Part shown: positions 1,296 to 23,126 of the stretch, piece after piece
How the letters are laid out: every line of letters starts with the position of its first letter
Numbering within the stretch: position 1 is the stretch's first letter
Virus record (IMG/VR): IMGVR_UViG_3300038312_000388
DNA from: a virus
Reading direction: 5' to 3' (one strand)
DNA: 40,762 bases
Made by a program: the position numbers and the translations under genes
The notes under the pieces: model-generated
Seen by the model: only the letters and a program-made list of their open reading frames with translations
Databases searched by the model: none
Told to the model about the DNA's origin: nothing

Positions 1296-1706
1296 ATGAT
1301 GAGAATCAGTATGTCACTACCAAAAAAACTTTTAGATGAATTTGACGAAGTCTTAAAGGACCGAGGATACCAAGCACGATCAAAAGGTATACGAGATGCA
1401 CTTAAAGATTATATTGTCCGCTACCAATGGATGAATGAAATGGAAGGAGAAAGAGTTGGACTCATAAACGTCATCTACAATTACCACTACACCGGAATCA
1501 TGGAAGACCTGACCGACCTACAACATGAATACGCAAATTATATCAATTCCACAATGCGCCTTCCAATGACAGAAAAATACGTCATGGACGTAATAGTAGT
1601 TAAAGGAAATATAAAATTTATTCGAGCTTTAACAGAGAAGATCATGCGCCTCAGGGGAATAGAACACGTCAAACTCACCAGCCTAACCGCCAACAAAAAA
1701 CCGTGA
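1296..1706 (+). CDS. nikR: NikR-family regulator, copy 1, lacking three canonical Ni ligands
   Basis: N-terminal RHH (MRISMSLPKKLLDEFD...RSKGIRDAL) plus NikR C-terminal domain ending EHVKLTS. The HxH...C Ni site reads RLP...V. RBS gagga upstream. Confidence 0.92.
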   Translation: MMRISMSLPKKLLDEFDEVLKDRGYQARSKGIRDALKDYIVRYQWMNEMEGERVGLINVIYNYHYTGIMEDLTDLQHEYANYINSTMRLPMTEKYVMDVIVVKGNIKFIRALTEKIMRLRGIEHVKLTSLTANKKP

Positions 1707-1984
1707 AAAAACTTTTTTTTAACTTATTTAACCCTAATTTTTCTTTTAAAACGAGCTGATAAGGATCTCTCAAGATCCACACCAATTTAAACCTTATTAT
1801 TTATAAGTTTAAATTTTTGTTAACCCCTAATTACAGGGACAAGATAAAAAGATAGACAAAAAATTAAGATGGTAGGCAAGCTTGAAGGGAGACTAAAAGA
1901 AAAATATGTCAAACTATAGAATTTAAGGACTTTAACCCAAACAGATATTAATTAGAATTACTAATTTCCTATTGGGGTTCATAG

Positions 1985-3016
1985 ATGGTGGAAGAAGACG
2001 ATAACAACAAGGTTTCAACTACAATTAAGCTTAATTTCAGGTGTATTTATGAAGTTAATTTTAATCATGAGGATACTAAGGCTTTAAAAAACATAACAAA
2101 TGAATTTAATAATCTACCTAAATTTAAAGAAGACACTTTAGGAAACAGTAACGAAGGATTTATGGATTTTACAGATGATTTTAAAATAGAACCATTTATA
2201 GTTAGGCCTTGTGTAGACCCCAAAGACTCTTCAGAAACAACTAAATTGAGATATGAAAAAAAAATTTCCAATAAAGATATTTTATCTAAAAGATTTAGAT
2301 ATGCGACTTATACTGAAGGGAGAAATGAACCTAACTATGTAGAAGCAGATATTTTTTGGATTAAACCCTGTGATGTCTTATTAATTAAGGGTGGTAAATC
2401 TGCATGCGATAAAATTACAGATTATTTAATTAGATTTAATAATGTTGGCTTTACTGAAATCAAATTTGATCATGATTTTTTATTATGGATCCTCTATAGA
2501 TATGATCAGTATAATGGAGTTATGAGCAGTAGTACAACTGCAGATATAATAATTGAGAAAATTGATAAAGGGAGAACTCACGGCGAAGACACAAACGAAA
2601 ATGATATAGAATTTAAAGATGGACAATCTCGATTAATGCCATTTACAACATTATATGGATTATTAATAAACCATGAAATATTACACATTGGTGGGGACTT
2701 TCAATTTAGGAAAAAGGACCACAAAATTAATGCTAAATTAGCTAAAGATATTACTATGCACATATATGCAGATCATGTACTTAAAGGCAAATCTTATGGT
2801 GAAAAATGTGCTTTAGCCTTCCCTTTCATAATAGAAATGATGGAAATTTTTGAAAACTGGACAAAAATGCCTGCAAAAAGTAAGTATCCTGATGATAAAT
2901 TCTTCGATTCAGCGAAAGAATCATTTGAAACACAAATGCATTACTCTTTAGAAGGAATTAAAGAATTAAAGAAAAAATATAAAAAATTAAGGAAAGGGTG
3001 TTCGCATGGATCATAG
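1985..3016 (+). CDS. Hypothetical 343-aa protein, gene 1 of an AT-rich cargo operon (candidate defence)
   Basis: Long ORF; overlaps the next ORF by 11 nt; no recognised family. Confidence 0.8.
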   Translation: MVEEDDNNKVSTTIKLNFRCIYEVNFNHEDTKALKNITNEFNNLPKFKEDTLGNSNEGFMDFTDDFKIEPFIVRPCVDPKDSSETTKLRYEKKISNKDILSKRFRYATYTEGRNEPNYVEADIFWIKPCDVLLIKGGKSACDKITDYLIRFNNVGFTEIKFDHDFLLWILYRYDQYNGVMSSSTTADIIIEKIDKGRTHGEDTNENDIEFKDGQSRLMPFTTLYGLLINHEILHIGGDFQFRKKDHKINAKLAKDITMHIYADHVLKGKSYGEKCALAFPFIIEMMEIFENWTKMPAKSKYPDDKFFDSAKESFETQMHYSLEGIKELKKKYKKLRKGCSHGS

Positions 3017-3638
3017 GTTCTTTTATGTGTACGAAGTAAAAGGAAACATTAACGAATTAGACCAAGTGAATGAAAATCCTATGGAAATCGACGAAACGAA
3101 ATTTAAATTAAATTTAGACAAACGTGAAAAAATTAAATCAATAATCCCAAACTATTGTTTCTATGATCAAGAAGAAATTAAAGGCAAAATTGAAATTAAA
3201 AATGACATCCAAAGGTTAGTTCCTTTTAAAATACGATCACAATCAAAATTATTATTCATTGAAACTCCTTTTCAAAGGGAAAAATTAAAAATTATTAATT
3301 TTTTAGATCGTATATTTGAAAATTTAGAATTAGAAACATTTGTACCAACAAATAGAGCAGAAGTAAATTTTATATGCCATACAGCAAATTTTACCTCCTT
3401 TAAAGTATTTATTGATAATGAAATCGTTCGTAGCAATGAAACTGACAAAGATTTATGCGAGGGATTAATGAAAGATATGGAATTAATAGAAGTTACATTA
3501 AACATGGATATCAATAATGAAAACGTTACATTTTATTATTATGGGAATGCCATTCAATTTCCATCTTATGAACAAGACAAAGACATAGAAGGAGTTATTC
3601 AAGTATTTGAAAATACGATGATGACCCCTTCTAAATAG
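3006..3638 (+). CDS. Hypothetical 210-aa protein, gene 2 of the cargo operon
   Basis: Translationally coupled to both neighbours; N-terminal FFYVYEV resembles FRCIYEV of gene 1. Confidence 0.8.
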   Translation: MDHRFFYVYEVKGNINELDQVNENPMEIDETKFKLNLDKREKIKSIIPNYCFYDQEEIKGKIEIKNDIQRLVPFKIRSQSKLLFIETPFQREKLKIINFLDRIFENLELETFVPTNRAEVNFICHTANFTSFKVFIDNEIVRSNETDKDLCEGLMKDMELIEVTLNMDINNENVTFYYYGNAIQFPSYEQDKDIEGVIQVFENTMMTPSK

Positions 3639-3644
3639 ATTATC

Positions 3645-4313
3645 ATGTTACCCCCTAAAATCAAAACAATCACTGAATTATCATTAAAACCCCATAAGAC
3701 ATGGTTGCCTGTTTTTATTGGAGCTTGGATTGGAATTATTCCTAACCTTCCCAAATATTCTCCTCTTGAAGCTTTTCTTACACCTCTATGGTATGTTACT
3801 ATTCTCTTAATTTTACCATTCATTGCTATTTTAATTTACATACCCTTATTCTACTGGAAAATTTTCAAAAAGGTAACCATAATAAACAAAAAATATTTTG
3901 TTGATCTTATGGGAACTAATAATTTCATTGAGTTCCCTGAACTAATATTAAATGAAGATTTTGTCTCTAGATTTTCTTTTAAATTAAAATTTTATGGGGA
4001 CATATCTTCTAAACGATTAGTATTGCTTATTAAAAAAGCGCCAACGGTCAATATTTACCTCAAACAACACAATGAAAAACTAAACCAAGAATCAGAAAAC
4101 ATTACTAAGGACTTGTTTTACATAAAACAAGACTACGAACTTTTTAGTAGTTCTTTAAGTTACTCTATTTATATAGAAACTGCAAAAGCCGAAGATACAA
4201 CTAGATTAGAGATGTATCTAGAAGATGAAGAGTTCTTAAATAAAATAAGAATTAATCCCAATTTAAAACCCAAAAATTTAATTCATAGTGAAAACTTTTA
4301 CTTATCAAAGTAA
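3645..4313 (+). CDS. 2-TM membrane protein with soluble C-terminal domain, gene 3 of the cargo operon
   Basis: Two N-terminal hydrophobic segments (WLPVFIGAWIGII; LWYVTILLILPFIAILIYIPLFYW); 6 nt after gene 2. Confidence 0.8.
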   Translation: MLPPKIKTITELSLKPHKTWLPVFIGAWIGIIPNLPKYSPLEAFLTPLWYVTILLILPFIAILIYIPLFYWKIFKKVTIINKKYFVDLMGTNNFIEFPELILNEDFVSRFSFKLKFYGDISSKRLVLLIKKAPTVNIYLKQHNEKLNQESENITKDLFYIKQDYELFSSSLSYSIYIETAKAEDTTRLEMYLEDEEFLNKIRINPNLKPKNLIHSENFYLSK

Positions 4314-4504
4314 ATTTAAATAAATTTTAGGATTAAAAAAAGTTACTCTAAATCCTCTTTTTCCATACTACGATTAATAATGGACACATTTTAAATTGAG
4401 GTGTGTACATTCCTTAATTACTTCTCAAATGCACTAACTCTTTTTTTAAGCATATTAAAATACGATTAAACAGTGTCAAACAACATTTTACAGATAAGAA
4501 TAAG

Positions 4505-4544
4505 TGAAGACCGGGTCCAACGACCAAATCTTCCCCGGCCTTCA
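4505..4544. repeat. GC-rich hairpin with 11-bp arms (1 mismatch)
   Basis: tgaagaccggg (4505-4515) / cccggccttca (4534-4544), loop contains cgaccaaa. Confidence 0.5.
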
Positions 4545-4672
4545 TGACAACACCCAGGAGGCGCTGCCATGAATAATTGTGTTAGTGATAACTATAAACT
4601 TTTTGATCAAGAACAAAACGAAAATTTAAAATTAGAAAAAAGGGGTTGTTCATTAAGAACTCCTCATATATA

Positions 4673-4900
4673 TCATTTCTTAGATTTTTTGAGTTCTTCG
4701 TACCTGCGGAGGTATATATCTTCATTAGCTTCAATGAAGAGTTTTACAGCTTCTTTCCATGCAGAGTTCATGGGATCTTTATCAAATTTAATTTGTGCTA
4801 TTTCTTTCATGACTTTCAGGTCATCTTTAAAAACAGTTGCAGCGGTCCTTGTTTCGTTTGATACATCAACACTTTTTGTTTCCTTTGCCATAGATTCCAC
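4673..4900 (-). CDS. Putative ribbon-helix-helix repressor
   Basis: Strong RBS aaggaggtg before the GTG start; strand-helix-helix pattern (TRTAATVF-KDDLKVMKEIA-NSAWKEAVKLFIE); divergent from the early operon. Confidence 0.65.
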   Translation of the reverse strand: MESMAKETKSVDVSNETRTAATVFKDDLKVMKEIAQIKFDKDPMNSAWKEAVKLFIEANEDIYLRRYEELKKSKK

Positions 4901-4990
4901 CTTAACACCTCCTTTATCTGAATGTGTATTTATCTATTTCTTATACAATATACATTTTTTGTATTTAACTCTTTTTGTTCTAAAAAAATA

Positions 4991-5071
4991 TTTTGTACAA
5001 AATGTACAAACATTTAAATAGTAGTATGTTCACAGTACTAAATAACAATTTGTACAAAATGTACAAAATGT
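4991..5071. promoter_or_regulatory. Divergent promoter/operator region (lysis-lysogeny switch candidate)
   Basis: 19-bp direct repeat tttgtacaaaatgtacaaa at 4992-5010 and 5049-5067, containing the palindrome TTTGTACAAA, flanking TATA-like TTTAAATA (5013-5020). Confidence 0.7.
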
Positions 5072-5234
5072 GAAGGGGGCTTATTTTTTTTCCAATCCCT
5101 TCCAAATGGCTCTCATTGCGAGTAAGCCTGGCGGGTCTGGCAACACCATAACAGTAAGCTATGAGATTTTTTGCTTTGATTTTCCTCGAAGTTGACAACA
5201 AAATAAATATTTTTCATTCTTTTAATTTTTCAAA

Positions 5235-5281
5235 TTTTTTGGAGTCTCTATTGGCTCAAGGAAGAAAAATTAGGAGGTGAA
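5235..5281 (+). repeat. 47-bp direct repeat, copy 1 (5' of the HNH gene)
   Basis: ttttttggagtctctattggctcaaggaagaaaaattaggaggtgaa; 4 mismatches to the copy at 5790-5836; includes the RBS. Confidence 0.85.
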
Positions 5282-5284
5282 CGT

Positions 5285-5782
5285 TTGGTAAAAGAAATAT
5301 CTTTAACGCAAGGACAAGTCGCTTTAGTTGATGATGAAGATTATAATTACTTGAATCAATGGAAATGGGAAGCACGACATAGTCGAAGTAAAAGCAATTA
5401 TTATGCTGCACGGAAAAAGTATTTGGGAAAAATAAACGGAAAATATAGATTCGTAACAGTTAGAATGCACAGATTACTCATGAATGCTCCTAAAAACAAG
5501 CAAGTAGACCATATAAACCATAACACATTGGATAATAGGAAATGCAACCTTCGAATCGTGTCGCCCAGACAAAATATGCAAAATAGGGAGGTTAAATCCG
5601 CTTCAAGATATCCTGGAGTTTATTGGGAAAGATCACACAACCGATGGAGAGCACGTATTGTCATAGATGGTAAACCAAAACATTTGGGCTATTTTAAAGA
5701 TGAATGTGAGGCAGCCAAAGCCTATGAAAGGGCTTGTAGGTCTTTAGGTGAAGAACTTGTTTGTAAAATGGAATCTAAATAA
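5285..5782 (+). CDS. HNH homing endonuclease with C-terminal AP2 DNA-binding domain
   Basis: VRMHRLLM..VDHINHNTLDNRKCNLR (HNH) and YPGVYW...WRARI...HLGYF...EAAKAY (AP2). Confidence 0.92.
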   Translation: MVKEISLTQGQVALVDDEDYNYLNQWKWEARHSRSKSNYYAARKKYLGKINGKYRFVTVRMHRLLMNAPKNKQVDHINHNTLDNRKCNLRIVSPRQNMQNREVKSASRYPGVYWERSHNRWRARIVIDGKPKHLGYFKDECEAAKAYERACRSLGEELVCKMESK

Positions 5783-5789
5783 ATTTTAT

Positions 5790-5836
5790 TTTTTTGGAGT
5801 CTCTATTGGCTCAAAGAAGAGAAATTGAGAGGTGAA
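5790..5836 (+). repeat. 47-bp direct repeat, copy 2 (3' of the HNH gene)
   Basis: ttttttggagtctctattggctcaaagaagagaaattgagaggtgaa. Confidence 0.85.
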
Positions 5837-5839
5837 AAC

Positions 5840-5950
5840 ATGGATAAAAAGGAATGGTGGATTAGAGAAGTAGAAAGAGCAAAAAATATTGGAACACCTG
5901 AGGAAGTTGAGGAAGCCAAAAAAGGATTGAGAGAATGTGAAAGTCTGTGA
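5840..5950 (+). CDS. Small 36-aa hypothetical protein (not in the ORF track)
   Basis: RBS gaggtga; MDKKEWWIREVERAKNIGTPEEVEEAKKGLRECESL. Confidence 0.65.
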   Translation: MDKKEWWIREVERAKNIGTPEEVEEAKKGLRECESL

Positions 5951-5961
5951 GGTGAGTAAAC

Positions 5962-6708
5962 TTGAATGAATTAATGAAATTTGAGTTTAAAAACAATCAA
6001 AAATTAGAATGTGTTGAATTAGATGGAGAACCATTGTTTAATCCATTTAGTGTAGGAAGATGCCTTGAAATAGTAGATGGGAGTGTTAAAAACACATTAA
6101 CACACATGGACTCTGAAGACATCATAGATTTAAAATCTGATGTTGTAAATAACCGCGTCACGTTGAACGTGACGGAAGATTCTCCGAGGTTTTGGCTTCG
6201 TGAATCTGGTTTATATCTGTTTATTTTTAAATCAAGGAAAAAAGAAGCTAAAGCTTTCAAGAAATGGGTTGCTCGTGAAGTTCTCCCATCTATTCGAAGG
6301 ACTGGAGAATACAGTTTGAGTAAATCTGATTCTTTGGATCTTAGTTCTTCCTTGGATACTTTGCAGAAGCTTAATGTTGTAGAACCTCATGAGATTGCAG
6401 TTTCTAGTAATCAGTCTTACAGGGCCAAGCTTGCGAATCTGATTAATGATATTGCAAAGAGGAATCATAAAGGGCCACAGGTGCTTTATGAGGAATTATA
6501 TCATGTTTTTGCGGCCAAATCTGGAGTCTATATTCCAGAACAGGCTGAACAACTTGGTTTACGTCCTAATCAATATCTTAAAAAACATGAAGTACTTTCA
6601 ATGAATCTCTTTGATTTCGCCAGGAACTACTTTTATCATGGCAAAATGATTGTAGAACTCATAAATTTGGACCCTGCACAGAAGACTTTGGGAGAGTTCA
6701 AGGCATGA
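5962..6708 (+). CDS. Bro-N domain protein (antirepressor-like)
   Basis: ESGLYLFIFKSRKKEAKAFKKWVAREVLPSIRRTGEY is the Bro-N signature. Confidence 0.9.
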   Translation: MNELMKFEFKNNQKLECVELDGEPLFNPFSVGRCLEIVDGSVKNTLTHMDSEDIIDLKSDVVNNRVTLNVTEDSPRFWLRESGLYLFIFKSRKKEAKAFKKWVAREVLPSIRRTGEYSLSKSDSLDLSSSLDTLQKLNVVEPHEIAVSSNQSYRAKLANLINDIAKRNHKGPQVLYEELYHVFAAKSGVYIPEQAEQLGLRPNQYLKKHEVLSMNLFDFARNYFYHGKMIVELINLDPAQKTLGEFKA

Positions 6709-6770
6709 TTGGCCGTGAGTTTAAAATTATTTTTTAATTTTTTAATTCTTTTTTGGAGGTTTGATAGTTC

Positions 6771-6959
6771 ATGGATTGTTGTAAAATTTGTGGTGGTAAA
6801 GCGGATTATCGGGCGGTTGATAAGACTTTTAAGTTGTTGGCTCCTTTTTTGTGTAAGTCTTGTTTAAAGGATGTTTCTGTTCCGGGTAGTGAAGAGTTCT
6901 ATGAGAGGATACAGGGACAGGTGGAAGATAAAGGGAAAGAAGTTGTGGAGGCTAAATGA
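6771..6959 (+). CDS. Small Zn-finger protein
   Basis: CKICGG...LCKSC; RBS ggaggt. Confidence 0.7.
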   Translation: MDCCKICGGKADYRAVDKTFKLLAPFLCKSCLKDVSVPGSEEFYERIQGQVEDKGKEVVEAK

Positions 6960-7267
6960 TGGTACTTGCGTTTGAAAAACTTGGAAAGGAAATTGAAGGG
7001 GATTGTGGAACTATTTGCATGAAATATCGTGAACGTCATGGAATAAAGAGTGCACCGTTACACTGCAAGGATGAAGTTTGTTATGGTAAATGTCCATTCA
7101 CAGCTCCTTTGAATGTTGCTGGGGCTAAGCCTAGTTGGATTCTTTTAGAGGAATCTGAGTATATGAATCTTGTTTGTAAAGCTTCGCTTTATGATGAGAT
7201 GCAGGGCAGGCACAATCAGCCACATGGTGAACAGTTTAATGTTGTGAAGCTCCAGGAGGCTGTTTAG
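6956..7267 (+). CDS. Hypothetical Cys-containing protein
   Basis: Coupled to the upstream ORF (ATGA overlap). Confidence 0.65.
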   Translation: MMVLAFEKLGKEIEGDCGTICMKYRERHGIKSAPLHCKDEVCYGKCPFTAPLNVAGAKPSWILLEESEYMNLVCKASLYDEMQGRHNQPHGEQFNVVKLQEAV

Positions 7268-7268
7268 G

Positions 7269-7460
7269 ATGGAGAAGGTTGAGGTTATGCGTAAGAAGTC
7301 TGGTGAGATTTTGAAGGGTTTTGATGGTTGGGGTTATGGTGGAATCCTTATAACCCTCATTTTTGCTTTGATTGGGGCTATTGAGTCTTCAAAGAATCCT
7401 AAAGGCACTTATAAGTTTGTTTTAAACTTTTTAGATAAATCTGCAAAAGGGGGAAAATAG
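7269..7460 (+). CDS. Small membrane protein
   Basis: One hydrophobic segment GILITLIFALIGAI; operonic spacing. Confidence 0.6.
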   Translation: MEKVEVMRKKSGEILKGFDGWGYGGILITLIFALIGAIESSKNPKGTYKFVLNFLDKSAKGGK

Positions 7461-7462
7461 AG

Positions 7463-7699
7463 ATGGATAAGATCTTCGCGGTTGTAACCTGCCTCGGCAG
7501 CAGCATATTAGAACCAGACGTTCATGTTTTAGAATTGTTTGAGACACTTGAGGAAGCCGAAAAATACCAGGAAGGAATGAAGGACTGGAATATCCTCACA
7601 ATAGACCCGAATATGGTTTGGGGAGAAGGAAAGTATCCCTTTGAAAAGGTAGCAAAATTCAAAGAGGGTGCGGGGGTTGTTAAAGTTGAAGACGATTAA
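7463..7699 (+). CDS. Hypothetical protein
   Basis: Operonic spacing, RBS ggggg. Confidence 0.65.
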   Translation: MDKIFAVVTCLGSSILEPDVHVLELFETLEEAEKYQEGMKDWNILTIDPNMVWGEGKYPFEKVAKFKEGAGVVKVEDD

Positions 7700-8003
7700 A
7701 TTTGCGGAGGATTTCTCAAAGCTTGATAAGGAATATTTTACTTCAATCCGAAAGCCATCAAAGAACCTGAAATCTGGGAATGTCTATGAGATTAAGACAC
7801 CGACAAGGGAATTTAAAGCAGCTCTTGTAACACAGTCCAAGGTTCGGCTCTGTGAAATTCCAGAGAAAACCTTACTCCAGGATACATGTACCCAGAGTAG
7901 GATCCAGGCTGTAAATAAGTTGTGTGAATTTTATCCAAAATTAACAGAAGCCAGCCCCGTGAGATTGCTTTGGTTTAAACATGTTACAGAGGAGGCTGCT
8001 TAA
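7668..8003 (+). CDS. ASCH/PUA-like domain protein (alternative start TTG 7686)
   Basis: IKF..DFSKL...FTSIRK....GNVYEI pattern and final L.EFYP...V.LLWF are typical of ASCH-like proteins. Confidence 0.6.
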   Translation: MRGLLKLKTIKFAEDFSKLDKEYFTSIRKPSKNLKSGNVYEIKTPTREFKAALVTQSKVRLCEIPEKTLLQDTCTQSRIQAVNKLCEFYPKLTEASPVRLLWFKHVTEEAA

Positions 8004-8004
8004 A

Positions 8005-8211
8005 ATGGAGAAGTTTAAATCTTTCAATTTTGAGGATTTACGGCCACCAGAAGGCCTTCTTGTAAGGATCCAGAAAGTCAAATGTTCACCTGGAGATCTG
8101 GGTGGACTGCCATTTTTTGACCGGAACAGGCCCATTTGTGCTGGTGATAGAGTTCTTGTTAGAACTTCTTTTAATTGTTTTTATGAAGCCTGTTTTTTGA
8201 AAGGAGTGTGA
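8005..8211 (+). CDS. Hypothetical protein
   Basis: ATG 8005 after ggagg, in frame with the track ORF 7981-8211. Confidence 0.55.
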   Translation: MEKFKSFNFEDLRPPEGLLVRIQKVKCSPGDLGGLPFFDRNRPICAGDRVLVRTSFNCFYEACFLKGV

Positions 8212-8217
8212 TTTTCA

Positions 8218-8316
8218 ATGGTTAGTTGGGAACGTTATTATCAGGAAATGGAAATGGTGAATGAAGGAAAATACGGCCAGGACAAGGAAAAAGATGATAA
8301 GGAGGCTGAACAATGA
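8218..8316 (+). CDS. Small 32-aa acidic protein (not in the ORF track)
   Basis: RBS aaggagtgtga; MVSWERYYQEMEMVNEGKYGQDKEKDDKEAEQ; stop overlaps the next ATG. Confidence 0.6.
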   Translation: MVSWERYYQEMEMVNEGKYGQDKEKDDKEAEQ

Positions 8317-8561: not shown

Positions 8562-8563
8562 AA

Positions 8564-9184: not shown

Positions 9185-9194
9185 GGGTGATAAT

Positions 9195-9980
9195 GTGGAA
9201 AGTCCATTTACCATAATTGTTGGCCATATTAGGGAGTTTAAGAGTTTTTTGAAGATGATTATGAGATCATCTACTTTTAGTGAGGATTTCCATGTGGAAG
9301 TGTCTGAGGAAGGGATGAGGATCCATGAATTGGATCGAAGTCATATTACATTTCTTGACCTTTTATTTCCACCTAAATTTTTTGATAAGTACCAATGCAA
9401 TGAGGCCACGGTGCTTAAACTGAATAGATATGATTTACTTTGGGTTTTAGATGGGTTTGATGAGGAGGAGGACCTTCTAGAATTATCCATGAATGGTGAA
9501 AAACTCCAAGCACGTACCTTGGAAGCAATTCATGAACGTAGATTTGAAATCTCCCAGGTAGACTTAGAATATGCACCTCCAAGTCTCCCAGATGTGGAAT
9601 ATCCAATTAACCTGAAAATAGCCCTCAGACAACTAATAAAAATCGTAGAGAACAGTCAGGGTGTAGGTGGAAGTTTAAAACTGAAATATCAATTTAACAG
9701 ACTATACTTCTGCATAATTGGTGAGACCCAAAAATATTATGGAAAAACCTTTGCAGCTGAGAAGAATGGAGCTTCAAAATGTTATAAATCCAACTATTCC
9801 ATTGAAAGATTTAAACCCCTCCTTAAACTATGTGAAGACAATAAGTTCCTCCCAGACATCATAGGAGACATATACATCCAATTCGATGATGATTCACCCA
9901 TCACCATAAAAACAGAACCATACCCAGATTGTCCCAGTTTCATGTTAATGATCGCACCAAGAATCGAAGCAGAGGAATAA
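9195..9980 (+). CDS. pcn: PCNA-like DNA sliding clamp
   Basis: EEGMRIHELDRSHITFLDL.FP..FFDKY and C-terminal F.DDSPI...LMIAPRIE match the PCNA pattern; size 261 aa. Confidence 0.82.
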   Translation: MESPFTIIVGHIREFKSFLKMIMRSSTFSEDFHVEVSEEGMRIHELDRSHITFLDLLFPPKFFDKYQCNEATVLKLNRYDLLWVLDGFDEEEDLLELSMNGEKLQARTLEAIHERRFEISQVDLEYAPPSLPDVEYPINLKIALRQLIKIVENSQGVGGSLKLKYQFNRLYFCIIGETQKYYGKTFAAEKNGASKCYKSNYSIERFKPLLKLCEDNKFLPDIIGDIYIQFDDDSPITIKTEPYPDCPSFMLMIAPRIEAEE

Positions 9981-9982
9981 AC

Positions 9983-11826: not shown

Positions 11827-11827
11827 A

Positions 11828-12868: not shown

Positions 12869-12870
12869 TT

Positions 12871-13103
12871 CAGTTGCAAGTGCTGCAAGTGTAACAAGTG
12901 TAAAAATGGTATACCCTCATAAACTACACGTGCCACATACACGTTGCACGTGTACTTTTTCAAGTGTAAAAAAAACTATACGTGGAGCTTCCACGTGTAC
13001 ACATGTAGATTACACGTGGAGTTCCTTGATTATACCTTATTTTATTATATTATATATTATATTATTATTTAATTAATTATTATTAATTAATAAATTATTT
13101 ATT
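12871..13103. other. Candidate viral replication origin (iteron-like repeats plus pure-AT tract)
   Basis: CAAGTG at 12877, 12886, 12895 and 12961; CACGTG at 12927, 12947, 12992 and 13013; 67 bp containing only A/T at 13037-13103. Confidence 0.55.
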
Positions 13104-13829
13104 CTTCCTGATTATTTCTTTTAGTTCCACGATCTCAGACTGTAACTCTTGCATTTCTCCTTTTAGTTCTTGTATCTCGTTTTGTTCGCAGTTCTTTCCG
13201 GATTTTTCTGTAAGCCATGAGGCTATTTGTGCTGTGAACATCCCCAGGAAAAGGACGCCTATGATCATCACGGTCATACTGATTAGTCTGCCGGATACTG
13301 TTGCTGGGTATATATTTCCACCATCTGTTGTCATGGTTGGTAGAACATACCAGAAAGCATCTCCTAAGTTATGCACGTTTGTATTTATTCCGGCTTCTAC
13401 AATGTAAAAAAGGATTGTACCTGCAATAACAGTCATTAATAATATTCCAAAACTCCAATCAAGGTGAGTTTCCTCAATAAACTCTTTTAGAAGTTTTGAA
13501 CCTTTGTTTAGTAGGATAAGTACTCGTATTAATCTTAGAAATCTGAAAGGGGCGAATTCTATTGGTATCATTGCGATTATGTCAATCCATGTCCATTTAT
13601 TTTTAAAAAATGCTTTTTTATCTTCTGTTTCATGGAGTCTGAGCATAAAATCACAGAAAAGTATAAAACAGACAGCTAAATCAAAATAGATTATACCTTG
13701 TGCAAGTAAAACCCCTACATTAGAGAAACTAGACCATGTAATCACGAAAACATCTATGATAACTAAGAATATTATAACAATGCTTGAAATAGTTCTAATC
13801 TTCATTTTTCTACCACTCAAAATAGTCAA
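13095..13829 (-). CDS. 6TM voltage-gated-type cation channel (K+ channel family) with an atypical filter
   Basis: S1-S3, S4 FRFLRLIRV, S5, pore helix DAFWY, filter TTDGGN, YPAT.SGR, S6 and a C-terminal coiled coil. Confidence 0.9.
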   Translation of the reverse strand: MTILSGRKMKIRTISSIVIIFLVIIDVFVITWSSFSNVGVLLAQGIIYFDLAVCFILFCDFMLRLHETEDKKAFFKNKWTWIDIIAMIPIEFAPFRFLRLIRVLILLNKGSKLLKEFIEETHLDWSFGILLMTVIAGTILFYIVEAGINTNVHNLGDAFWYVLPTMTTDGGNIYPATVSGRLISMTVMIIGVLFLGMFTAQIASWLTEKSGKNCEQNEIQELKGEMQELQSEIVELKEIIRKNK

Positions 13830-14508: not shown

Positions 14509-14531
14509 AATATAAAAGGAAGCGAAATGTT

Positions 14532-15342: not shown

Positions 15343-15361
15343 AAAAAAGAGGTAAATTTAG

Positions 15362-15529: not shown

Positions 15530-15657
15530 ATTTCTATTTTTTTTAATTAAGATTTTCAAAAGAATATTAACCCTAATTTTTGGCTTATTTTTCGTGTTTT
15601 AGTTTATACCCCTCTTGGTTACGTATATATTATTATGGGTTTTATGGAGGTTTGTTT

Positions 15658-16248: not shown

Positions 16249-16643
16249 GTATTTCATATGTTCCAAGAGTTCCACGTTGGGGATTACATGATGGAGTGAA
16301 ATATTCACCAAAACGCAGTATTTTAAAGGTTTGCCCTATATGCCACCACCTATTTGTACAATACAATCAGGGATATCGGATTTATTGTGGGGATATTTGC
16401 AGAATAAAAGCACATAGGGCACAAAAAAAGATTATAGATGCCAAAATCAGAGCAAAAAGGGATAAATTTGAGCACGCAGAACAGGAAAGAATCGCCTATG
16501 CACAAAAGCTAAGATCTAAAAGAACCTGGGGACCTGGAACCATGAAAATACCTAAACCCAAACTTGACAGTGAAGGAAACCCAGATTATGACGATTACCA
16601 CCAAAAACTATCCAAAAAATTAGCATGGATCCATGCCAAATGA
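16245..16643 (+). CDS. Basic Zn-finger protein
   Basis: CPICHHLF...IYCGDICR; coupled to the upstream ORF. Confidence 0.7.
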   Translation: MSISYVPRVPRWGLHDGVKYSPKRSILKVCPICHHLFVQYNQGYRIYCGDICRIKAHRAQKKIIDAKIRAKRDKFEHAEQERIAYAQKLRSKRTWGPGTMKIPKPKLDSEGNPDYDDYHQKLSKKLAWIHAK

Positions 16644-16854
16644 CCACATTACTTTACGTCCAGAAGATAGGGTAAGGAAACATAGAAAAAGTTTCCCCTA
16701 AAAACCAAGATCTCTTCAAACAAATCGAAGCCAAGATGGGGTTCAAATCCCCCATTTTCCACTTTAAATTACTTTATTTTCATTCCTTTATAGCCGTGAA
16801 GGTTTGAACTCTTTTTTGGGAGCCTGCATAGAACCAGGCCCCACCTTTTTAAGA

Positions 16855-17166
16855 TTATTCATTGAATTCCTGATTGTACATGTCCTGGAGTATATGGGAT
16901 TGTTCTATAATCTCTTTTTGTCTTGTGGTTTCATCTAGTTTATACCAGTATTCTTCGGGGCAGCGGACTGTTAAGTGAAGTTCACATGAGTTTTTGAAGG
17001 TGATATGGCCTTCTATGATTTCAGATCCTAGGTTTAGGATTTTATCTAGAAAGTTTTCCAGGTCTTTCCGGTCTTTTTCATGTTTAGATGGATCTTTAAA
17101 GACCAAGTTTATGATCGTGGCATTTGGAGAGTTTTTTTGAATTGTATATTCCACGTAATTTAACAT
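16855..17166 (-). CDS. Hypothetical protein (reverse-strand cargo)
   Basis: ATG 17166 after ggaggtg; hairpin gggagcctg/caggcccc just downstream. Confidence 0.65.
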   Translation of the reverse strand: MLNYVEYTIQKNSPNATIINLVFKDPSKHEKDRKDLENFLDKILNLGSEIIEGHITFKNSCELHLTVRCPEEYWYKLDETTRQKEIIEQSHILQDMYNQEFNE

Positions 17167-17253
17167 ATACACCTCCACACATGTTTAATAAATTATGTTT
17201 CATTATTAATACACTTTTTTGTTTTAAAACTAAAAATTAGGAGGAGATAAGAT

Positions 17254-17466
17254 ATGGCAGTTGAAGCATTTAAGAATTTGACAGGAGCAGGACAGTTAGC
17301 AGCGGTAGTGCAAGTAATTATTGTTGTAGTGCCCATGCTGACTTACTTAGAATCAGTGGTTTCTGCATCGCAGGCAGCTTACATAACATTTGCAATAACA
17401 GTGTTAAACGGCCTTGTTGTTTTAATACAGGCTGTTGGTGGCAATACTGCATTTGTAAAAGAATAA
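17254..17466 (+). CDS. Holin-like 2-TM protein
   Basis: RBS aggaggag; two hydrophobic helices in 70 aa. Confidence 0.55.
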   Translation: MAVEAFKNLTGAGQLAAVVQVIIVVVPMLTYLESVVSASQAAYITFAITVLNGLVVLIQAVGGNTAFVKE

Positions 17467-17493
17467 AATTTTGATGGATGAAAGGTGATCCTC

Positions 17494-17814
17494 ATGGGTA
17501 GATTACTAGATGAACCTGGATCAAAGAGTTCTTTGAAGATGAAAGCAGAGCCACAAGGCCACGAATGTATCCATGAAGACCTATTCACATCAATCAACAG
17601 ACGACTTGATGGTGTTGAATCAGAAAAAAAGGATACTGACGACAAACTCGATGAAATCAAAACCGCTGTGAATAATGTGGACAAAAAAGTGGACATCATA
17701 AACGCAATAAACAACAATAACGATTCTATTTTTAATAAAACAACAAACGTCCTCATGGTCCTTGCAAGCATCATCGGTGTTCTCATAGGACTTGGACTTA
17801 AAATCAGGTTCTAA
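17494..17814 (+). CDS. Coiled-coil protein with a C-terminal TM anchor (lysis-accessory-like)
   Basis: RBS aggtga; heptad region, then VLMVLASIIGVLIGLGL. Confidence 0.65.
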   Translation: MGRLLDEPGSKSSLKMKAEPQGHECIHEDLFTSINRRLDGVESEKKDTDDKLDEIKTAVNNVDKKVDIINAINNNNDSIFNKTTNVLMVLASIIGVLIGLGLKIRF

Positions 17815-17827
17815 ATGGGTGTTAAAG

Positions 17828-17935
17828 ATGGATGTAACAATATTCTATTTCTACGTTCTCATAGCCACAATCGCATTCATCATTTTAATGTGCGTACAGT
17901 TGAATGAAAGCTTAAAGAAATGTTCAAGCTGGTGA
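17828..17935 (+). CDS. 35-aa single-TM peptide (not in the ORF track)
   Basis: MDVTIFYFYVLIATIAFIILMCVQLNESLKKCSSW; fills the gap before the terminase. Confidence 0.5.
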   Translation: MDVTIFYFYVLIATIAFIILMCVQLNESLKKCSSW

Positions 17936-17941
17936 TTATCC

Positions 17942-18475
17942 ATGGCATATCCGCAAGAGGTTAAGGATTATGCGAAGGATCTGTTTTTGACATTGAACAA
18001 AGATGGCCAGCATAAGTACTCTGATCCGGAAATTGTTGGAAAAATTTCCACAAAATTTCCAAAATTAAGGAAATTTCCAGACAAGCGAACCATCAAAAAC
18101 TGGGAGAATGCAAAGGACCATGAAACCAAGAAATCTTGGAAGATGCTTTGGGATAATGGTGTGAGGCATGGTATTCAGAATGCGGTTCGTGATCGTGATT
18201 TAGAGCTTGCTGGTGAGGAAGAATTTGAAATCCAGATAGATAAAATTACAAGTCTACGTGTTGGTAATGCGATTAAGATTCAGGAGAAAATTTCCCAGGA
18301 TCTGGAAAAAGGGTGGAGTCTTTCTAAGGAGGATGTGGCGGCTCTGCGTGCGAGTGAAACTATTTTTTGTAATTTGAATCTTGAGAAGCAGACTGATAGT
18401 GATGATGCTGATATTGATTATGATTACCTGGAAAAGGTGCATGATGAAGATTGTGAGGATGCTGATGATGAATGA
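17942..18475 (+). CDS. terS: Terminase small subunit
   Basis: N-terminal HTH (YPQEVK..A..L...EI....TIKNW); acidic tail; directly before terL. Confidence 0.7.
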   Translation: MAYPQEVKDYAKDLFLTLNKDGQHKYSDPEIVGKISTKFPKLRKFPDKRTIKNWENAKDHETKKSWKMLWDNGVRHGIQNAVRDRDLELAGEEEFEIQIDKITSLRVGNAIKIQEKISQDLEKGWSLSKEDVAALRASETIFCNLNLEKQTDSDDADIDYDYLEKVHDEDCEDADDE

Positions 18476-19875
18476 ACTCAACACAACGCCGAAAGCTAGA
18501 ACAGGTCTGCAGTCGCCTTTATTCGTTTACCAGGTTCACCCAGGGACCACACTTCATACCAGGCCGCCACCTGAAAAAGATGGCCTGGAAATTAGAGGAA
18601 GTTGCACTTAAGCATAAGAAGCGTTTAATCATCAACACACCTCCACGGTTCAGTAAAACTACTTTTTGCAGTGTGAGTTTCCCGGTTTGGAGGATCTTCA
18701 AAAACCCCAACCTCCAAATCCTCATCATCACATATGGTGATGACTTAAGCTCAGAAATAGGTACACAAATCCGCAGACTGATAATTGAATATGGACCACT
18801 ATTCAATGTTTACCTCTCCAAACACACAGCCTCAAAAACCAAAGTCACATTTGTAGACCGCGACGGTAAAGAATACCGTGGCAAAATTGAAGCCCTAGGA
18901 TATAAAGGAGCCATCACTGGTAAAACTGGTGACATAATTATCATTGATGACCTGATTAAAGGTCCTGAAGATGCTTTAAGTCCAGCTTATACTCGGAAGA
19001 TTATTGATTTTTATAAATCCGCAATTTACACTCGTTTATTTGAAGATTCTGTTATCATTGTTGTATCAACAAGGTGGAGTAAGAATGACCTTGCGGGATA
19101 TCTTTTAGAGAACAGTTCAGAGGATTGGGATACTTATATTCTACCTGCGGTGGATGATGAAGGTAATTCAGCATGGCCTGAACGCTTTAGCAGCACGAGG
19201 ATGGCTACAATACAGAAAGAAGAGGGAGCCTTTTGGTGGAGTGCATTATATTTGCAGGAGCCGGAGGAGCTTGAAGGAGATGTCTTTGAAGGCGAATTCC
19301 TAACTATTCCTAGAAGTGAAGTGGATCCTGAAAGGAACTTTGAACGTGTTGTCAGATTCTGGGACCGTGCAGCCACCACCACTAAAGAGAATAGTGATGA
19401 TCCAGATTGGACTGTAGGCTTAAAAATGGCCCGTATAAACCCTAGATCCGCCCTGGCAAAGAAGTACAAAATTAAATATCTTGTTTTAAATGTTGTAAGA
19501 TTCCGTGACACACCGCTCAAGAACCGTCAAAAAATACAGAGAACAGCCCTACGTGATGGTAAGAGTGTTGAAATCTTCATGGAAGAGGAAGGTGGAAGCA
19601 GTGGAAAAGACACGATAGACACGTACCGCCGAGAAGTTCTGCACGGCTTCAGATTCCAGGGAATAAGATCCACGGGTAGTAAAGAATTAAGAGCTATGGG
19701 TGTGGCTGCATCTGTAGAGGCCCAGGAAACAGCATTCATTGAAGATTCAACTTGGAATGGAAATTTATTCCTAGAGATGAGAGCCTTCCCATATGGAAGT
19801 CATGATGACCAGGTGGATACTTTAAGCGGAGCTCATACCAGACTACGTAGAAAACCAGCTAAAGTATACATTTAA
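18472..19875 (+). CDS. terL: Terminase large subunit
   Basis: INTPPRFSKT (Walker A-like), GAITGKTGDIIIIDD (Walker B), nuclease FWDRA...D and HDDQVD. Confidence 0.96.
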   Translation: MNSTQRRKLEQVCSRLYSFTRFTQGPHFIPGRHLKKMAWKLEEVALKHKKRLIINTPPRFSKTTFCSVSFPVWRIFKNPNLQILIITYGDDLSSEIGTQIRRLIIEYGPLFNVYLSKHTASKTKVTFVDRDGKEYRGKIEALGYKGAITGKTGDIIIIDDLIKGPEDALSPAYTRKIIDFYKSAIYTRLFEDSVIIVVSTRWSKNDLAGYLLENSSEDWDTYILPAVDDEGNSAWPERFSSTRMATIQKEEGAFWWSALYLQEPEELEGDVFEGEFLTIPRSEVDPERNFERVVRFWDRAATTTKENSDDPDWTVGLKMARINPRSALAKKYKIKYLVLNVVRFRDTPLKNRQKIQRTALRDGKSVEIFMEEEGGSSGKDTIDTYRREVLHGFRFQGIRSTGSKELRAMGVAASVEAQETAFIEDSTWNGNLFLEMRAFPYGSHDDQVDTLSGAHTRLRRKPAKVYI

Positions 19876-19888
19876 AAGGAGGATAAAG

Positions 19889-21481
19889 ATGACAGCGACA
19901 AAAGCAACCCGAACACCATTCATGTATGCAATGAAGGATGGAAGCCTTGTAGATGCAGATGTACTTGAACAATACGCAATAAAGTCAGATGACAGTAAGC
20001 AACTTCCAGAGGATCCATGGATTGGAGAAAACCAGAAATACCCATCCTACATCAAAGCCCCACTCTACAACCCCTACGCCCTGGCACAGCTTCCAGAACT
20101 AAACGTGTACCACAACCGCTGCGTGAAAACCAAGGCAAATGACACAGTTGGGAAAGGTTACACATTAAATCCAGTTGGCGAGGATCCCTCTGATATGAAT
20201 AAGAAGATAATTCAGGAGTTTTTGGATAAGATTGTTACGGACAAGTTTTCAGGTACACGAACCGTGATGGGAGAACTCCTAAAATGCCAGATTAACTATG
20301 AGGGCCTTGGATACACAGCCTATGAAATTATCCGAATCGGAAATACCACCCAGGGCCAACCAGAATCTATTAAAAACATCCCAGCCCAAACCCTCCGAAG
20401 ATGCAATGATGGTGTGAGATTCGTCCAAAAACGAGGCGGTGAAACAAGATACTTCAAAGCCTTCGGCTACGACCAAGACGTTAACATGACCACAGGCGAA
20501 CTCGCACCACTAAACAGTCTACCTGCAGAACAACAGGCAAATGAGATCATATATTGGATGGATTACACACCACGAAGTGACTACTACGGCCTTCCAGACA
20601 TAATACCCAGTATACCAACAATCTATGGGGATTTAAGCCGTCAGAAATATAATATTGCTTTTTTCAGGAATTATGGTGTACCAGCTTATGCTATTTTTAT
20701 CACTGGTGACTTTGAGGACCAGGAGATCCTGGATGACAATGGTAAACCTACAGGTCAAACCGTGATGAAGAAAGCTATCCAGGACCATTTCAACACAATC
20801 GCCAAAAACCCACACGCACCAATGGCCATTGTAGTGCCAACAGGCGACAACCCCGACGCAAAAGTAGAAGTAAAATTCCAGGCCCTAAGCGTGGAAACCA
20901 AAGAAGCAAGCTTCAGACTCTACAGAACCGACAACCGAGATGAGGTAATAGCAGCACATGCCGTACCACCATACCGGATTGGAATCGCAGAAACAGGCAG
21001 CCTCGGAGGATCTACCGCGGAAGAGTCAACAGAGATCTATAAAGCCAGCGTGATAAAACCGCGACAAACTACGATTGAGGAGCTTTTTAATTATGCAATT
21101 ATTCAGAAAGGCTTTGAGGTAGAGGATTGGAAGCTTAAACTTGTTGAGATTGACACAAAAGACGAAGAAGCAGAACTCAACAAAGCCAAGGCAATGTTCC
21201 TGATGGGTGCAATAACCCCAAATCAGCTTATAAACGTGTTTGGTGATGGTTGGGGTTTGGAGACTGTGGATCATCCCGCTATGAATGCTCATTATGTTAA
21301 CAATATGGCAATAGATCTTCAAGTTCAACAGGATCAGGTGCCAGAAGATGTTATGAAGGCCCTTAAAACGCTTAAATCAAATCTTTTAGAGGTGGCTGAT
21401 AAATATGAAGGTAAATCCGTTCCGGGAGATGGCCATGAAGGTGGACGACTCCATCGAGCAGTTAAACAATTTACAATCTAA
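19889..21481 (+). CDS. Portal protein
   Basis: Follows terL; YYGLPDII, FFRNYGVP, VPPYRIG motifs of PBSX-like portals; 530 aa. Confidence 0.92.
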   Translation: MTATKATRTPFMYAMKDGSLVDADVLEQYAIKSDDSKQLPEDPWIGENQKYPSYIKAPLYNPYALAQLPELNVYHNRCVKTKANDTVGKGYTLNPVGEDPSDMNKKIIQEFLDKIVTDKFSGTRTVMGELLKCQINYEGLGYTAYEIIRIGNTTQGQPESIKNIPAQTLRRCNDGVRFVQKRGGETRYFKAFGYDQDVNMTTGELAPLNSLPAEQQANEIIYWMDYTPRSDYYGLPDIIPSIPTIYGDLSRQKYNIAFFRNYGVPAYAIFITGDFEDQEILDDNGKPTGQTVMKKAIQDHFNTIAKNPHAPMAIVVPTGDNPDAKVEVKFQALSVETKEASFRLYRTDNRDEVIAAHAVPPYRIGIAETGSLGGSTAEESTEIYKASVIKPRQTTIEELFNYAIIQKGFEVEDWKLKLVEIDTKDEEAELNKAKAMFLMGAITPNQLINVFGDGWGLETVDHPAMNAHYVNNMAIDLQVQQDQVPEDVMKALKTLKSNLLEVADKYEGKSVPGDGHEGGRLHRAVKQFTI

Positions 21482-21956
21482 AGTTTCAGTTAAAACTGAT
21501 GCAGATCTAACTTTTAAGCCAAACAAAGACCTTGGCGAAGGCAACGCATCGGATAGAAACCTTGAATATCGTCAAGCCCTTTTAACCTGCCTCAAAGAAA
21601 CCGTCTACAACCCCATGACTAAGATTCTCGATTCTGGGAAGAGTGTGGATGATGAGATACAGGCCCTGGATGGTTACATTGATGATTACATCAAAAAAGG
21701 CCAGGAAATTGTTGAAGAATATTTGACTGATGCATACCAAACTGGTGCAAAACAGGCAGTTTCACAGTTAAAGAAGGCAGCCAACAAACAAGGTGTGAAT
21801 ATTAAGCCGAAAATCCCGGATAAACCTGAACGCTTACAGCAAATCATACAGATGCAGCAGATGAATGTTGAAGATTATGGTTTAACCCTGCGTGGCCGCA
21901 TACGATCCGCGATAATGTCCAAACAATGGCTTGATAATTATGACAACAAAAAATAA
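21405..21956 (+). CDS. Head-module hypothetical protein (possibly the N-terminal part of a minor head protein)
   Basis: Between the portal and the gp7-like ORF; RBS gaggtg. Confidence 0.65.
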   Translation: MKVNPFREMAMKVDDSIEQLNNLQSKVSVKTDADLTFKPNKDLGEGNASDRNLEYRQALLTCLKETVYNPMTKILDSGKSVDDEIQALDGYIDDYIKKGQEIVEEYLTDAYQTGAKQAVSQLKKAANKQGVNIKPKIPDKPERLQQIIQMQQMNVEDYGLTLRGRIRSAIMSKQWLDNYDNKK

Positions 21957-22632
21957 AGGCCAACTCATAGACGACAATGAAGACTACGATCTTGACGATT
22001 ACTATGGGAACACCAATCAGGACAGTGAGAAGGATGGTAATTGGCTTTTTATGGTGGCAACTCTTCTTGGCGGAGCCTTTGCCGTTACAAGCCTCAACCC
22101 AACAGGAGACCGAGATAGTCCAAATTTAGCAAGCACACCTACATCTGTCAATGATATTTCAGATGAAACATTCAATACCATCATGAAATCCGAGATAGAC
22201 CCTGCTAAACTTGATAGTTCCGTTGAAAACCTACAATATGCTTACACTGATACAGAACTTGAGCAATACAAACAACTCGGTGAAGAACTCAAACAACACG
22301 GCCGCATAGAAGATCCCCGGACAATTGAAAACACAGCCATGACCTGGGCTGAAAACCGTAACGATGCAATGGGGATGTTTGGTGACCTTGAAGCCTACAA
22401 ATCTGGGGTATTGGATGATTATATTACGGCTGTTACAGAGTATGGTGCCACTATTGAAATTCCATGGACCTGTACCGGGGATAATCCCTGCAGGAACTGC
22501 TTAGACTTAGAGGCATATGGTCCTTATGACCCAGAAAACTATCCAGAACCCCCACACTTCGGCTGCCAATGCAATGATCCAATGGCAGATCCTGTGATAA
22601 CATTCCCTGAAGAGAAAGTTTTCGCAAGTTAA
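21931..22632 (+). CDS. Head morphogenesis protein (SPP1 gp7/Mu F-like C-terminal domain)
   Basis: W.C.GD..C..C..L...GPY......PPHFGCQC. Confidence 0.75.
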   Translation: MIIMTTKNKGQLIDDNEDYDLDDYYGNTNQDSEKDGNWLFMVATLLGGAFAVTSLNPTGDRDSPNLASTPTSVNDISDETFNTIMKSEIDPAKLDSSVENLQYAYTDTELEQYKQLGEELKQHGRIEDPRTIENTAMTWAENRNDAMGMFGDLEAYKSGVLDDYITAVTEYGATIEIPWTCTGDNPCRNCLDLEAYGPYDPENYPEPPHFGCQCNDPMADPVITFPEEKVFAS

Positions 22633-22721
22633 TCACCTGAAAATATAATCCTTAAAAACCCTTTTTTAAAGGTGAAAAACATGGTAGAAAAAGAAGTAAA
22701 TTCAATTTTTTTAGGTTACCA

Positions 22722-23126
22722 TTAATTTTTAACAGCTAAACTGGTGAGTTTAACGTGTTCTACTCCTTTAATGCGCATGATCTTCTCGGTTAAGTTGCGG
22801 ATGAATTTCACATCTCCTTTGAGTATTAACACATCCATAAAGTACTCTTCAGTCATGGGAATACGCATACTGGAATTGATGTAATCTGTGTATTCATGTT
22901 GAACATCCATTAAATTTTCCAGGACTCCACTGTGATTGTGATCATAGATCACATTTATCAATCCAATCCTTTCTCCTTCCATTTCATTCATCCATTGGTA
23001 ACGGACAATATAATCTTTAAGTGCATCTCGTATACCTTTTGATCGTGCTTGATATCCTCGGTCATTTAAAACCTCATCAAACTCATCTAAAAGCTTTTTT
23101 GGCAGTGACATACTAATTCTCATCAT
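22722..23126 (-). CDS. nikR: NikR-family regulator, copy 2, lacking three canonical Ni ligands
   Basis: ATG 23126 after gaggag; about 77% identical to copy 1 by manual alignment; the HxH...C site reads RIP...F. Confidence 0.92.
   Translation of the reverse strand: MMRISMSLPKKLLDEFDEVLNDRGYQARSKGIRDALKDYIVRYQWMNEMEGERIGLINVIYDHNHSGVLENLMDVQHEYTDYINSSMRIPMTEEYFMDVLILKGDVKFIRNLTEKIMRIKGVEHVKLTSLAVKN

What the first reader, a model, noticed from the sequence alone, without database searches (positions are those of the whole stretch)
1296..23126. Two virus-encoded nickel-blind NikR paralogs in a methanogen provirus
Seen: two NikR-family genes (1296-1706 +, 22722-23126 -). By manual alignment they are 52/53 identical over the RHH DNA-binding region but differ at 30/81 positions in the metal-binding region. 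Both keep His77 but replace the other three ligands: His88/His90/Cys96 become R/P/V in copy 1 and R/P/F in copy 2. Established: the NikR high-affinity Ni site is His76, His87, His89 and Cys95 (E. coli numbering); NikR is a tetramer that usually represses Ni uptake when Ni-loaded; methanogens need Ni for F430/MCR, hydrogenases and CODH/ACS. Inference: these are not decayed copies (both ORFs are intact, with many synonymous differences). They may be Ni-independent regulators or dominant-negative subunits that heterotetramerise with host NikR and reset nickel uptake during lysogeny or lysis. One copy lies in the immunity region and one in the head module, which could mean stage-specific use.
Basis: partly seen in the sequence, partly recalled or inferred. 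Interest (0 to 1): 0.92.

Follow-up and report, generated by a model that had tools for sequence, protein, structure and literature searches.

The report
Virus-borne nickel regulators lacking nickel sites
A virus of a methane-producing archaeon carries two intact copies of the host's nickel-sensing gene regulator that have lost their nickel pocket but kept the DNA-reading part, so they may retune how the host takes up nickel, although similar pocket-less copies also sit in the host chromosome and nothing has been tested in the lab.

Summary
Both NikR genes are intact: 52/53 and 30/81 hold, His77 is kept, and 88/90/96 read R/P/V and R/P/F. The host is Methanobacterium sp. UBA410, whose core NikR keeps all four ligands. 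Both copies are under purifying selection (dN/dS 0.02 in the DNA-binding domain, 0.14 in the metal domain). New here: a NikR operator derived independently from nikM promoters has its best site in the 41-kb virus directly upstream of copy 1, and no other viral gene has one, so any targets are host genes. The ligand loss is not a viral invention: the Arg88/Asp98 type also occurs on the host chromosome and in islands, and 23% of diverse NikR representatives lack ligands. The 52/53 identity is partly gene conversion. The copies are not sisters and met by head-module exchange, so stage-specific use is unsupported. Best model (0.4): mixed tetramers with host NikR, in which the retained His77 completes host sites and nickel-dependent repression is dampened. 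No viral NikR was found in PHROGs, INPHARED, IMG/VR scans or papers, and this scan had not noted it on other DNA.

The parts
1296..1706 (+). nikR* copy 1 (136 aa): RHH plus NikR_C; ligand positions H77/R88/P90/V96, second-shell D98; directly downstream of the integrase
   Evidence: same position in related proviruses L083, L111, L114, L116, L314
22722..23126 (-). nikR* copy 2 (134 aa): H77/R88/P90/F96/D98; antisense insert between a head gene and the prohead protease
   Evidence: orthologue at the same site in L318, absent in the G004 head module and in the G001 provirus
1201..1228 (+). NikR-type operator GTAATA-N16-TATTAT, 95 nt upstream of copy 1
   Evidence: best site in the window for a matrix built only from nikM promoters (11.7 bits; local shuffle p 0.0025-0.007); only exact match in the window, 3 of 100 shuffles
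1240..1261 (+). second pair of half-sites, GTAATA-N10-TATTAC, around a TATA-like TTTAAATA (1246-1253), probable copy 1 promoter
   Evidence: sequence; unique in the host genome; similar in L114, L116, L092; promoter function is inferred
1371..1454 (+). codons 26-53 of copy 1, nearly identical in DNA to copy 2 (22968-23051): gene-conversion tract
   Evidence: 2 of 25 synonymous differences against 27 of 68 elsewhere, Fisher p 0.005; 50-nt exact run
1..996 (+). 3' 331 codons of a 398-aa tyrosine integrase (context)
4673..4891 (-). small divergent gene, candidate immunity repressor (context, distinct from nikR*)
   Evidence: its counterpart in the G001 provirus weakly hits Arc-like and repressor PHROGs (E 0.01-0.04); inference
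4992..5067 (.). two exact 19-nt repeats TTTGTACAAAATGTACAAA (4992-5010, 5049-5067), candidate operators of the lysogeny switch (context)
   Evidence: 0 of 100 shuffles
21931..22632 (+). head-module gene left of copy 2 (context)
23227..25107 (+). XkdF-type prohead protease right of copy 2 (context)

Best explanation
The two genes are working NikR paralogues of a mobile accessory lineage of the UBA410 group of Methanobacterium. They have given up their own Ni site and act on the host's NikR operators, most likely by co-assembling with the host's core NikR. Shown: three cis ligands are lost, the RHH and DNA-reading strand are host-like, selection is purifying, a host-type operator lies in the copy 1 promoter, and no other viral gene has one. 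Inferred: each NikR Ni site is built from three residues of one subunit plus His76/77 of a neighbour, so a viral subunit can complete a host subunit's site with its retained His77 but cannot hold Ni itself. Mixed tetramers then have fewer Ni sites and repress nikMQO and related genes less, or only at higher Ni. Because copy 1 should itself be repressed by Ni-loaded NikR, it would come on when Ni is scarce and keep uptake open longer (positive feedback). Copy 2 is a second, unregulated source acquired with a different head module.
For: RHH 48-49/52 identical to host core NikR, dN/dS 0.01-0.04 among viral copies. R3, S5, S7, R28, S29 and R33 are invariant in all 16 clade members. H77, R88 and D98 are invariant while 90 and 96 drift (P/S/Q; V/F/S/T). 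His76 is the trans ligand (PMC7055735). Position 77 is not structurally obligatory: sister accessory paralogues carry Y77 or E77 with H/H/C intact. The motif GTAATAC-N14-GTATTAC was found de novo in 30 nikM promoters; its best window site is upstream of copy 1 and the cobalt cbiM control scores lower. In the host the two perfect sites lie before nikM and before a flavin-reductase/CooC-like ATPase operon (the CooC label is my reading). The fold matches NikR metal domains at 1.2-1.4 A. The host has a canonical partner.
Against: There is no binding or assembly data. H77 invariance alone is weak, since 36% of metal-domain columns are invariant in the clade. The box is lost in L116 and absent before copy 2, L314 and the chromosomal copies, so it may be an inherited relic. 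Strong selection on DNA-contact residues fits a homotetrameric DNA binder equally well. Pro90 and changes at 62-66, 119 and 120 could impair mixing. A dampener is least needed when Ni is scarce, because host NikR is then already inactive. NikR is described as an obligate homotetramer (PMC11672702).
Confidence: 0.4

Rival explanations
1. Ni-independent, locked repressor. Arg88, paired with the shortened acidic neighbour Asp98, stands in for the metal and holds the homotetramer in a DNA-binding state. It represses NikR boxes constitutively and limits itself through the box in its own promoter.
For: R88 and D98 are both derived and both invariant in 16 members; they lie on adjacent strands 83-90 and 95-105, and same-face pairing is inferred from the known site geometry. 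DNA-contact residues are invariant, and an own-promoter box is typical of autoregulated viral RHH repressors (PMC5569661).
Against: Constitutive repression of nikMQO would harm a Ni-hungry host and its lysogen (inference). His-to-Arg is one transition and recurs in unrelated paralogues without Asp98. E98D also occurs with Cys loss in a separate H88 clade.
Confidence: 0.2
2. Local regulator of the mobile element, unrelated to nickel. The virus uses a de-sensitised NikR as a generic RHH repressor of its own promoter or of neighbouring cargo genes, perhaps through half-sites at another spacing.
For: The integrase-nikR*-cargo-BroN order is conserved in several proviruses, including diverged L314 at another site. 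A GTAATA-N10-TATTAC palindrome around the copy 1 TATA box is unique in the host genome. Archaeal viruses commonly use RHH repressors.
Against: No other viral promoter carries the box. The downstream cargo differs among relatives. A separate immunity-type gene and operators exist. Lone chromosomal copies with no virus nearby are also conserved.
Confidence: 0.18
3. The remodelled metal domain (an ACT-like fold) senses a different small ligand through H77/R88/D98 and couples it to NikR boxes.
For: The fixed derived triad and continued purifying selection in the metal domain (0.10-0.24). Many diverged NikR paralogues have other residue sets.
Against: Positions 90 and 96, which line the pocket, vary freely even between 91-94% identical proteins. 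The metal domain evolves about five times faster than in canonical NikR (median 0.03).
Confidence: 0.12
4. Near-neutral passengers: redundant accessory nikR copies that lost Ni binding and are kept only by selection against misfolded or toxic intermediates and by gene conversion.
For: Patchy distribution, tRNA-adjacent orphan copies, relaxed metal domain, gene conversion, and 32 of 141 diverse NikR representatives lack ligands.
Against: No broken copy was seen among the clade members examined. Synonymous divergence reaches 1.3 with intact frames. Copy 2 against its orthologue shows 15 synonymous and 4 replacement codons. DNA-contact residues stay invariant.
Confidence: 0.08

Closest known systems
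NikR (PF08753 + PF01402; NCBIfam PRK01002; P. horikoshii 2bj1, E. coli 2hza, H. pylori 6mrj)
   Same: Domain order, fold (metal-domain rmsd 1.2-1.4 A), His77, RHH, and 28-bp operator geometry (E. coli GTATGA-N16-TCATAC; here GTAATA-N16-TATTAC).
   Different: His88, His90 and Cys96 are replaced and Glu98 is Asp, so the His3Cys site cannot form in a homotetramer. The genes are on a virus.
Multiple NikR paralogues of Methanothermobacter (PMC3087415; a NikR1 homologue is high only under Ni limitation, PMC12350162)
   Same: Several nikR genes per methanogen genome; a Ni-repressed nikR paralogue has precedent.
   Different: Those are chromosomal, and the Methanothermobacter homologues retrieved here keep H/H/H/C. 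No ligand-less form is described in the passages read.
Plasmid-borne NikR of Methanoperedens (PMC9674854)
   Same: NikR on a mobile element of a methane-cycling archaeon.
   Different: There it sits beside CbiMNQO transporters on the plasmid. This virus has no CbiMNQO or other recognised Ni transporter and no second box.
Archaeal viral RHH repressors SvtR, AvtR and SSV1 F55 (PMC5569661)
   Same: Virus-encoded RHH proteins with binding sites in their own promoters.
   Different: They are small stand-alone RHH proteins with viral targets. These are full-length host-derived NikR with a host-type operator and no other viral target found.

Membership tests
NikR | N-terminal RHH plus C-terminal NikR_C domain | tested here: met
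NikR | His3Cys high-affinity Ni site (H76', H87, H89, C95) | tested here: not met
   only H77 kept; R/P/V and R/P/F. They are NikR homologues, not nickel-sensing NikR
NikR | DNA-recognition strand and helix-B contacts as in host NikR | tested here: met
   R3, S5, S7, R28, S29, R33 invariant; only S27 changed to A
NikR | Tetramer formation (homo, or mixed with host NikR) | not testable with these tools
NikR | 28-bp operator with N16 spacer in a regulated promoter | tested here: inconclusive
   present before copy 1 (p 0.003-0.007) and L114, absent before copy 2, L116, L314 and chromosomal copies; binding not shown
NikR | Ni-dependent DNA binding | not testable with these tools
   needs EMSA and Ni titration
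Viral immunity repressor (CI/F55-like) | Operators at the divergent early promoters of the virus | tested here: not met
   no NikR box near the BroN early operon; a different repeat pair and gene lie there
Virus-specific auxiliary gene | Variant confined to viruses | tested here: not met
   R88/D98 copies on chromosomes and in an island

The most novel reading that the evidence does not exclude
Methanogen viruses carry 'half-site' NikR subunits that donate His77 in trans into mixed tetramers with the host repressor, are switched on through the host's own nickel operator, and raise the host's nickel set-point. This would be viral control of the trace metal that limits F430 and hydrogenase synthesis, by pseudo-metallosensor subunits.
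Probability: 0.3. Interest if true: 0.85.

Novelty: new variant of a known kind. Interest (0 to 1): 0.55.

Why it matters
Nickel limits methanogenesis and reshapes the electron-flow proteome of Methanobacteriales (PMC12350162). No virus-encoded NikR turned up in PHROGs, INPHARED phages, three IMG/VR scans or the papers searched. If these proteins retune the host regulon, they would be a regulatory route by which viruses affect methane output in digesters, and natural probes of NikR allostery (what a tetramer with two or no Ni sites does). The work also yields a directly testable Methanobacteriaceae NikR operator. If they do not, they still show that genes annotated 'nickel-responsive regulator' often cannot sense nickel (23% of diverse representatives).

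Tried and rejected
IMG/VR scans with copy 2, a canonical NikR, the clade alignment and the protease gave nothing; the window's own virus was not found either, so these blanks are weak. The single-sequence fold of copy 2 was poor (pLDDT 57) and was not used. Codon-model omega values from IQ-TREE could not be read out, so pairwise Nei-Gojobori values are used; several pairs are saturated. Expression: in RNA library X1 a 516-nt contig covers copy 2 with its flanks at depth 11.6, and exact copy 1 pieces have depth about 2-3, but contigs also cover intergenic provirus DNA, so DNA carry-over is not excluded; this is not counted as evidence. The sigma-70 promoter scan was uninformative. Rfam found nothing. 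Rodionov 2006 was not held, so the operator was derived here. No paper was found for E97/H87 contacts. Rejected: duplication inside this virus (AU p 0.03); stage-specific late use of copy 2 (antisense to the late operon, absent in the sister provirus); copy 1 as the immunity repressor; direct capture from the host core nikR (the copies nest in an accessory clade, 98/98). The family-wide search showed R88-level scores only in G001 of 314 genomes, but 205 lower matches were not inspected and diverged members could hide among them.
Full report
Observation. Both ORFs are present and intact. The counts 52/53 and 30/81 and the residues H77/R88/P90/V96 and H77/R88/P90/F96 are exact; both also carry D98 in place of the usual E. 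Pfam and NCBIfam place them with NikR. Alignment to solved NikR structures confirms that 88, 90 and 96 are the His-His-Cys ligands, whose roles, including the trans role of His76, are given in PMC7055735. A model of copy 1 keeps the NikR fold.

The element. Window 1-4615 is 99.98% identical to a contig of Methanobacterium sp. UBA410. The window matches metagenome contigs in which the element is integrated in a yjbQ gene (L108) and one that joins its right end to its left end (L110; 87.6 kb, about twice the 43.7-kb unit), which suggests an excised circular form. Integrase, terminase, portal, protease, capsid and a pseudomurein-type lysin mark a temperate head-tail virus.

Is the variant ordinary? 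No. Of 121 close homologues 103 have H/H/H/C, as does the host's core nikR. But it is not virus-specific either. Thirteen rows form an R88 group (SH-aLRT 94) that includes lone chromosomal H/R/Q/F genes, one in the host genome itself, and an island copy. Two of the chromosomal loci lie beside tRNA genes, and sister species lack the gene at the host's site, so they look like remnants of mobile elements (inference). A DNA tree without the ligand codons puts all of them, with accessory H/H/H/C, Y/H/H/C and E/H/H/C paralogues, in a clade (98/98) apart from core nikR. In that tree the chromosomal and viral R88 groups are not resolved as one clade, so a single origin is likely but not shown, and the direction of transfer is open. 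More widely, 32 of 141 alignable NikR representatives at 50% clustering lack one or more ligands.

The two copies. Copy 1 sits after the integrase in this virus, in close variants and in diverged relatives (L114 and L116 with H/R/S/T; L314 with H/R/Q/S at another site). Copy 2 is an antisense insert in the head module. It is present at the same site in an 88-92% identical virus (L318) and absent from a more distant head module. It is also absent from the UBA410 provirus, which shares both arms with the window but has another head module. The copies are not sisters in the metal domain (AU p 0.03). They met by module exchange, and codons 26-53 were later homogenised (2/25 against 27/68 synonymous differences, p 0.005), which inflates the 52/53 figure. 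Stage-specific use therefore has no support. A better immunity candidate is the divergent gene at 4673-4891 with two exact 19-nt repeats.

Selection. Copy 1 against copy 2 gives dN/dS 0.02 in the RHH and 0.14 in the metal domain. Other viral and island pairs give 0.00-0.04 and 0.10-0.24, and canonical pairs have a metal-domain median of 0.03 (95th percentile 0.12). Copy 2 against its orthologue has 15 synonymous and 4 replacement codons. The metal domain is relaxed but maintained. In 16 clade members the DNA-contact residues and H77, R88 and D98 are invariant, while 90 and 96 drift.

Operator. From 30 nikM promoters of Methanobacteriaceae, with no viral input, an unseeded search converged on GTAATAC-N14-GTATTAC; cobalt cbiM promoters scored lower. 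Assigning this motif to NikR is an inference from geometry and from the genes it precedes. In the host the two perfect sites precede nikM and an operon with a CooC-like ATPase. The best site in the window is 1201-1228, 95 nt upstream of copy 1 (11.7 bits; p 0.0025-0.007 against local shuffles). The next best is in the same promoter, and copy 2 has none. The box is kept in L114 but deleted in L116 and absent before L314 and the chromosomal copies, so it is not essential to the lineage. Since no other viral gene has a box, targets of a host-like RHH would be the gene itself and host nickel genes.

Mechanism. The best reading (0.4) is co-assembly with host NikR. The one ligand kept is the one donated across subunits, which is useful only next to a canonical subunit, and sister paralogues show the reverse loss. 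Mixed tetramers would have fewer Ni sites and repress less, and the box would make copy 1 inducible at low Ni. Rivals are a locked Ni-independent repressor (0.2), a local regulator of the element (0.18), a sensor of another ligand (0.12) and near-neutral passengers (0.08). Transcription is not established.

Comparison and verdict. These are NikR homologues that fail the defining Ni-site test. No viral NikR was found in PHROGs, INPHARED, IMG/VR scans or the literature searched, and earlier notes of this scan concern canonical nikR only. Precedents exist for multiple methanogen NikRs, a Ni-limitation-induced NikR homologue, plasmid NikR and viral RHH repressors. Verdict: real, selected and apparently undescribed, a new variant of a known kind. 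It is less exceptional than first scored because ligand-less paralogues are common and also chromosomal. Interest 0.55.

Noticed in passing
window 13095-13829 (-): Virus-encoded potassium-channel-like membrane protein (Ion_trans, Ion_trans_2; weak hit to the archaeal MVP family), antisense cargo; absent from the sister G001 provirus.
   Followed up: partly
L110:6560-7366 (-), just beyond the window's right end: TauE/SafE permease inside the provirus next to the pseudomurein lysin, also in the G001 provirus. Substrate unknown; no NikR box was found near it.
   Followed up: partly
window 4673-5067: Small divergent gene, replaced by unrelated small genes in sister proviruses, plus two exact TTTGTACAAAATGTACAAA repeats: a probable swappable immunity switch.
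   Followed up: partly
L110:8445-8465 and G001:C4 provirus ends: Attachment core of about 19 nt inside yjbQ; L110 holds the end-to-start junction and is about twice unit length, suggesting an excised circle.
   Followed up: partly
window 17933-34212: The whole packaging, head and tail-start block is exchanged relative to the UBA410 provirus while both arms are 88-100% identical.
   Followed up: yes
L124:1489-1899 and L126:1504-1911: Accessory nikR paralogues in sister species with the complementary defect: Y77 or E77 with His88/His90/Cys96 intact.
   Followed up: partly
P0009, P0018, P0020, P0032, P0120: Separate Methanobacteriaceae paralogues that lost Cys96 (to Ile), four of the five also with E98D; context not examined.
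   Followed up: no
L002-L079, upstream of core nikR: A conserved AATATTGTT-N5-7-CAATATTG palindrome upstream of the TATA box of core nikR in many genomes, unlike the NikR box: an unidentified regulator site.
   Followed up: no
window 9195-9980 (+): PCNA-like sliding-clamp homologue in the early operon.
   Followed up: no
window 5285-5782 with repeats at 5223-5281 and 5780-5836: HNH-AP2 endonuclease flanked by 59-nt 86%-identical repeats and missing from sister proviruses: a mobile insert.
   Followed up: no
window 1985-4313: Three-gene cargo cassette after copy 1 with no Pfam or PADLOC match; in L111 the slot holds a PDC-S01-like defence ATPase and in L314 an MJ0788/DUF2283 pair.
   Followed up: partly
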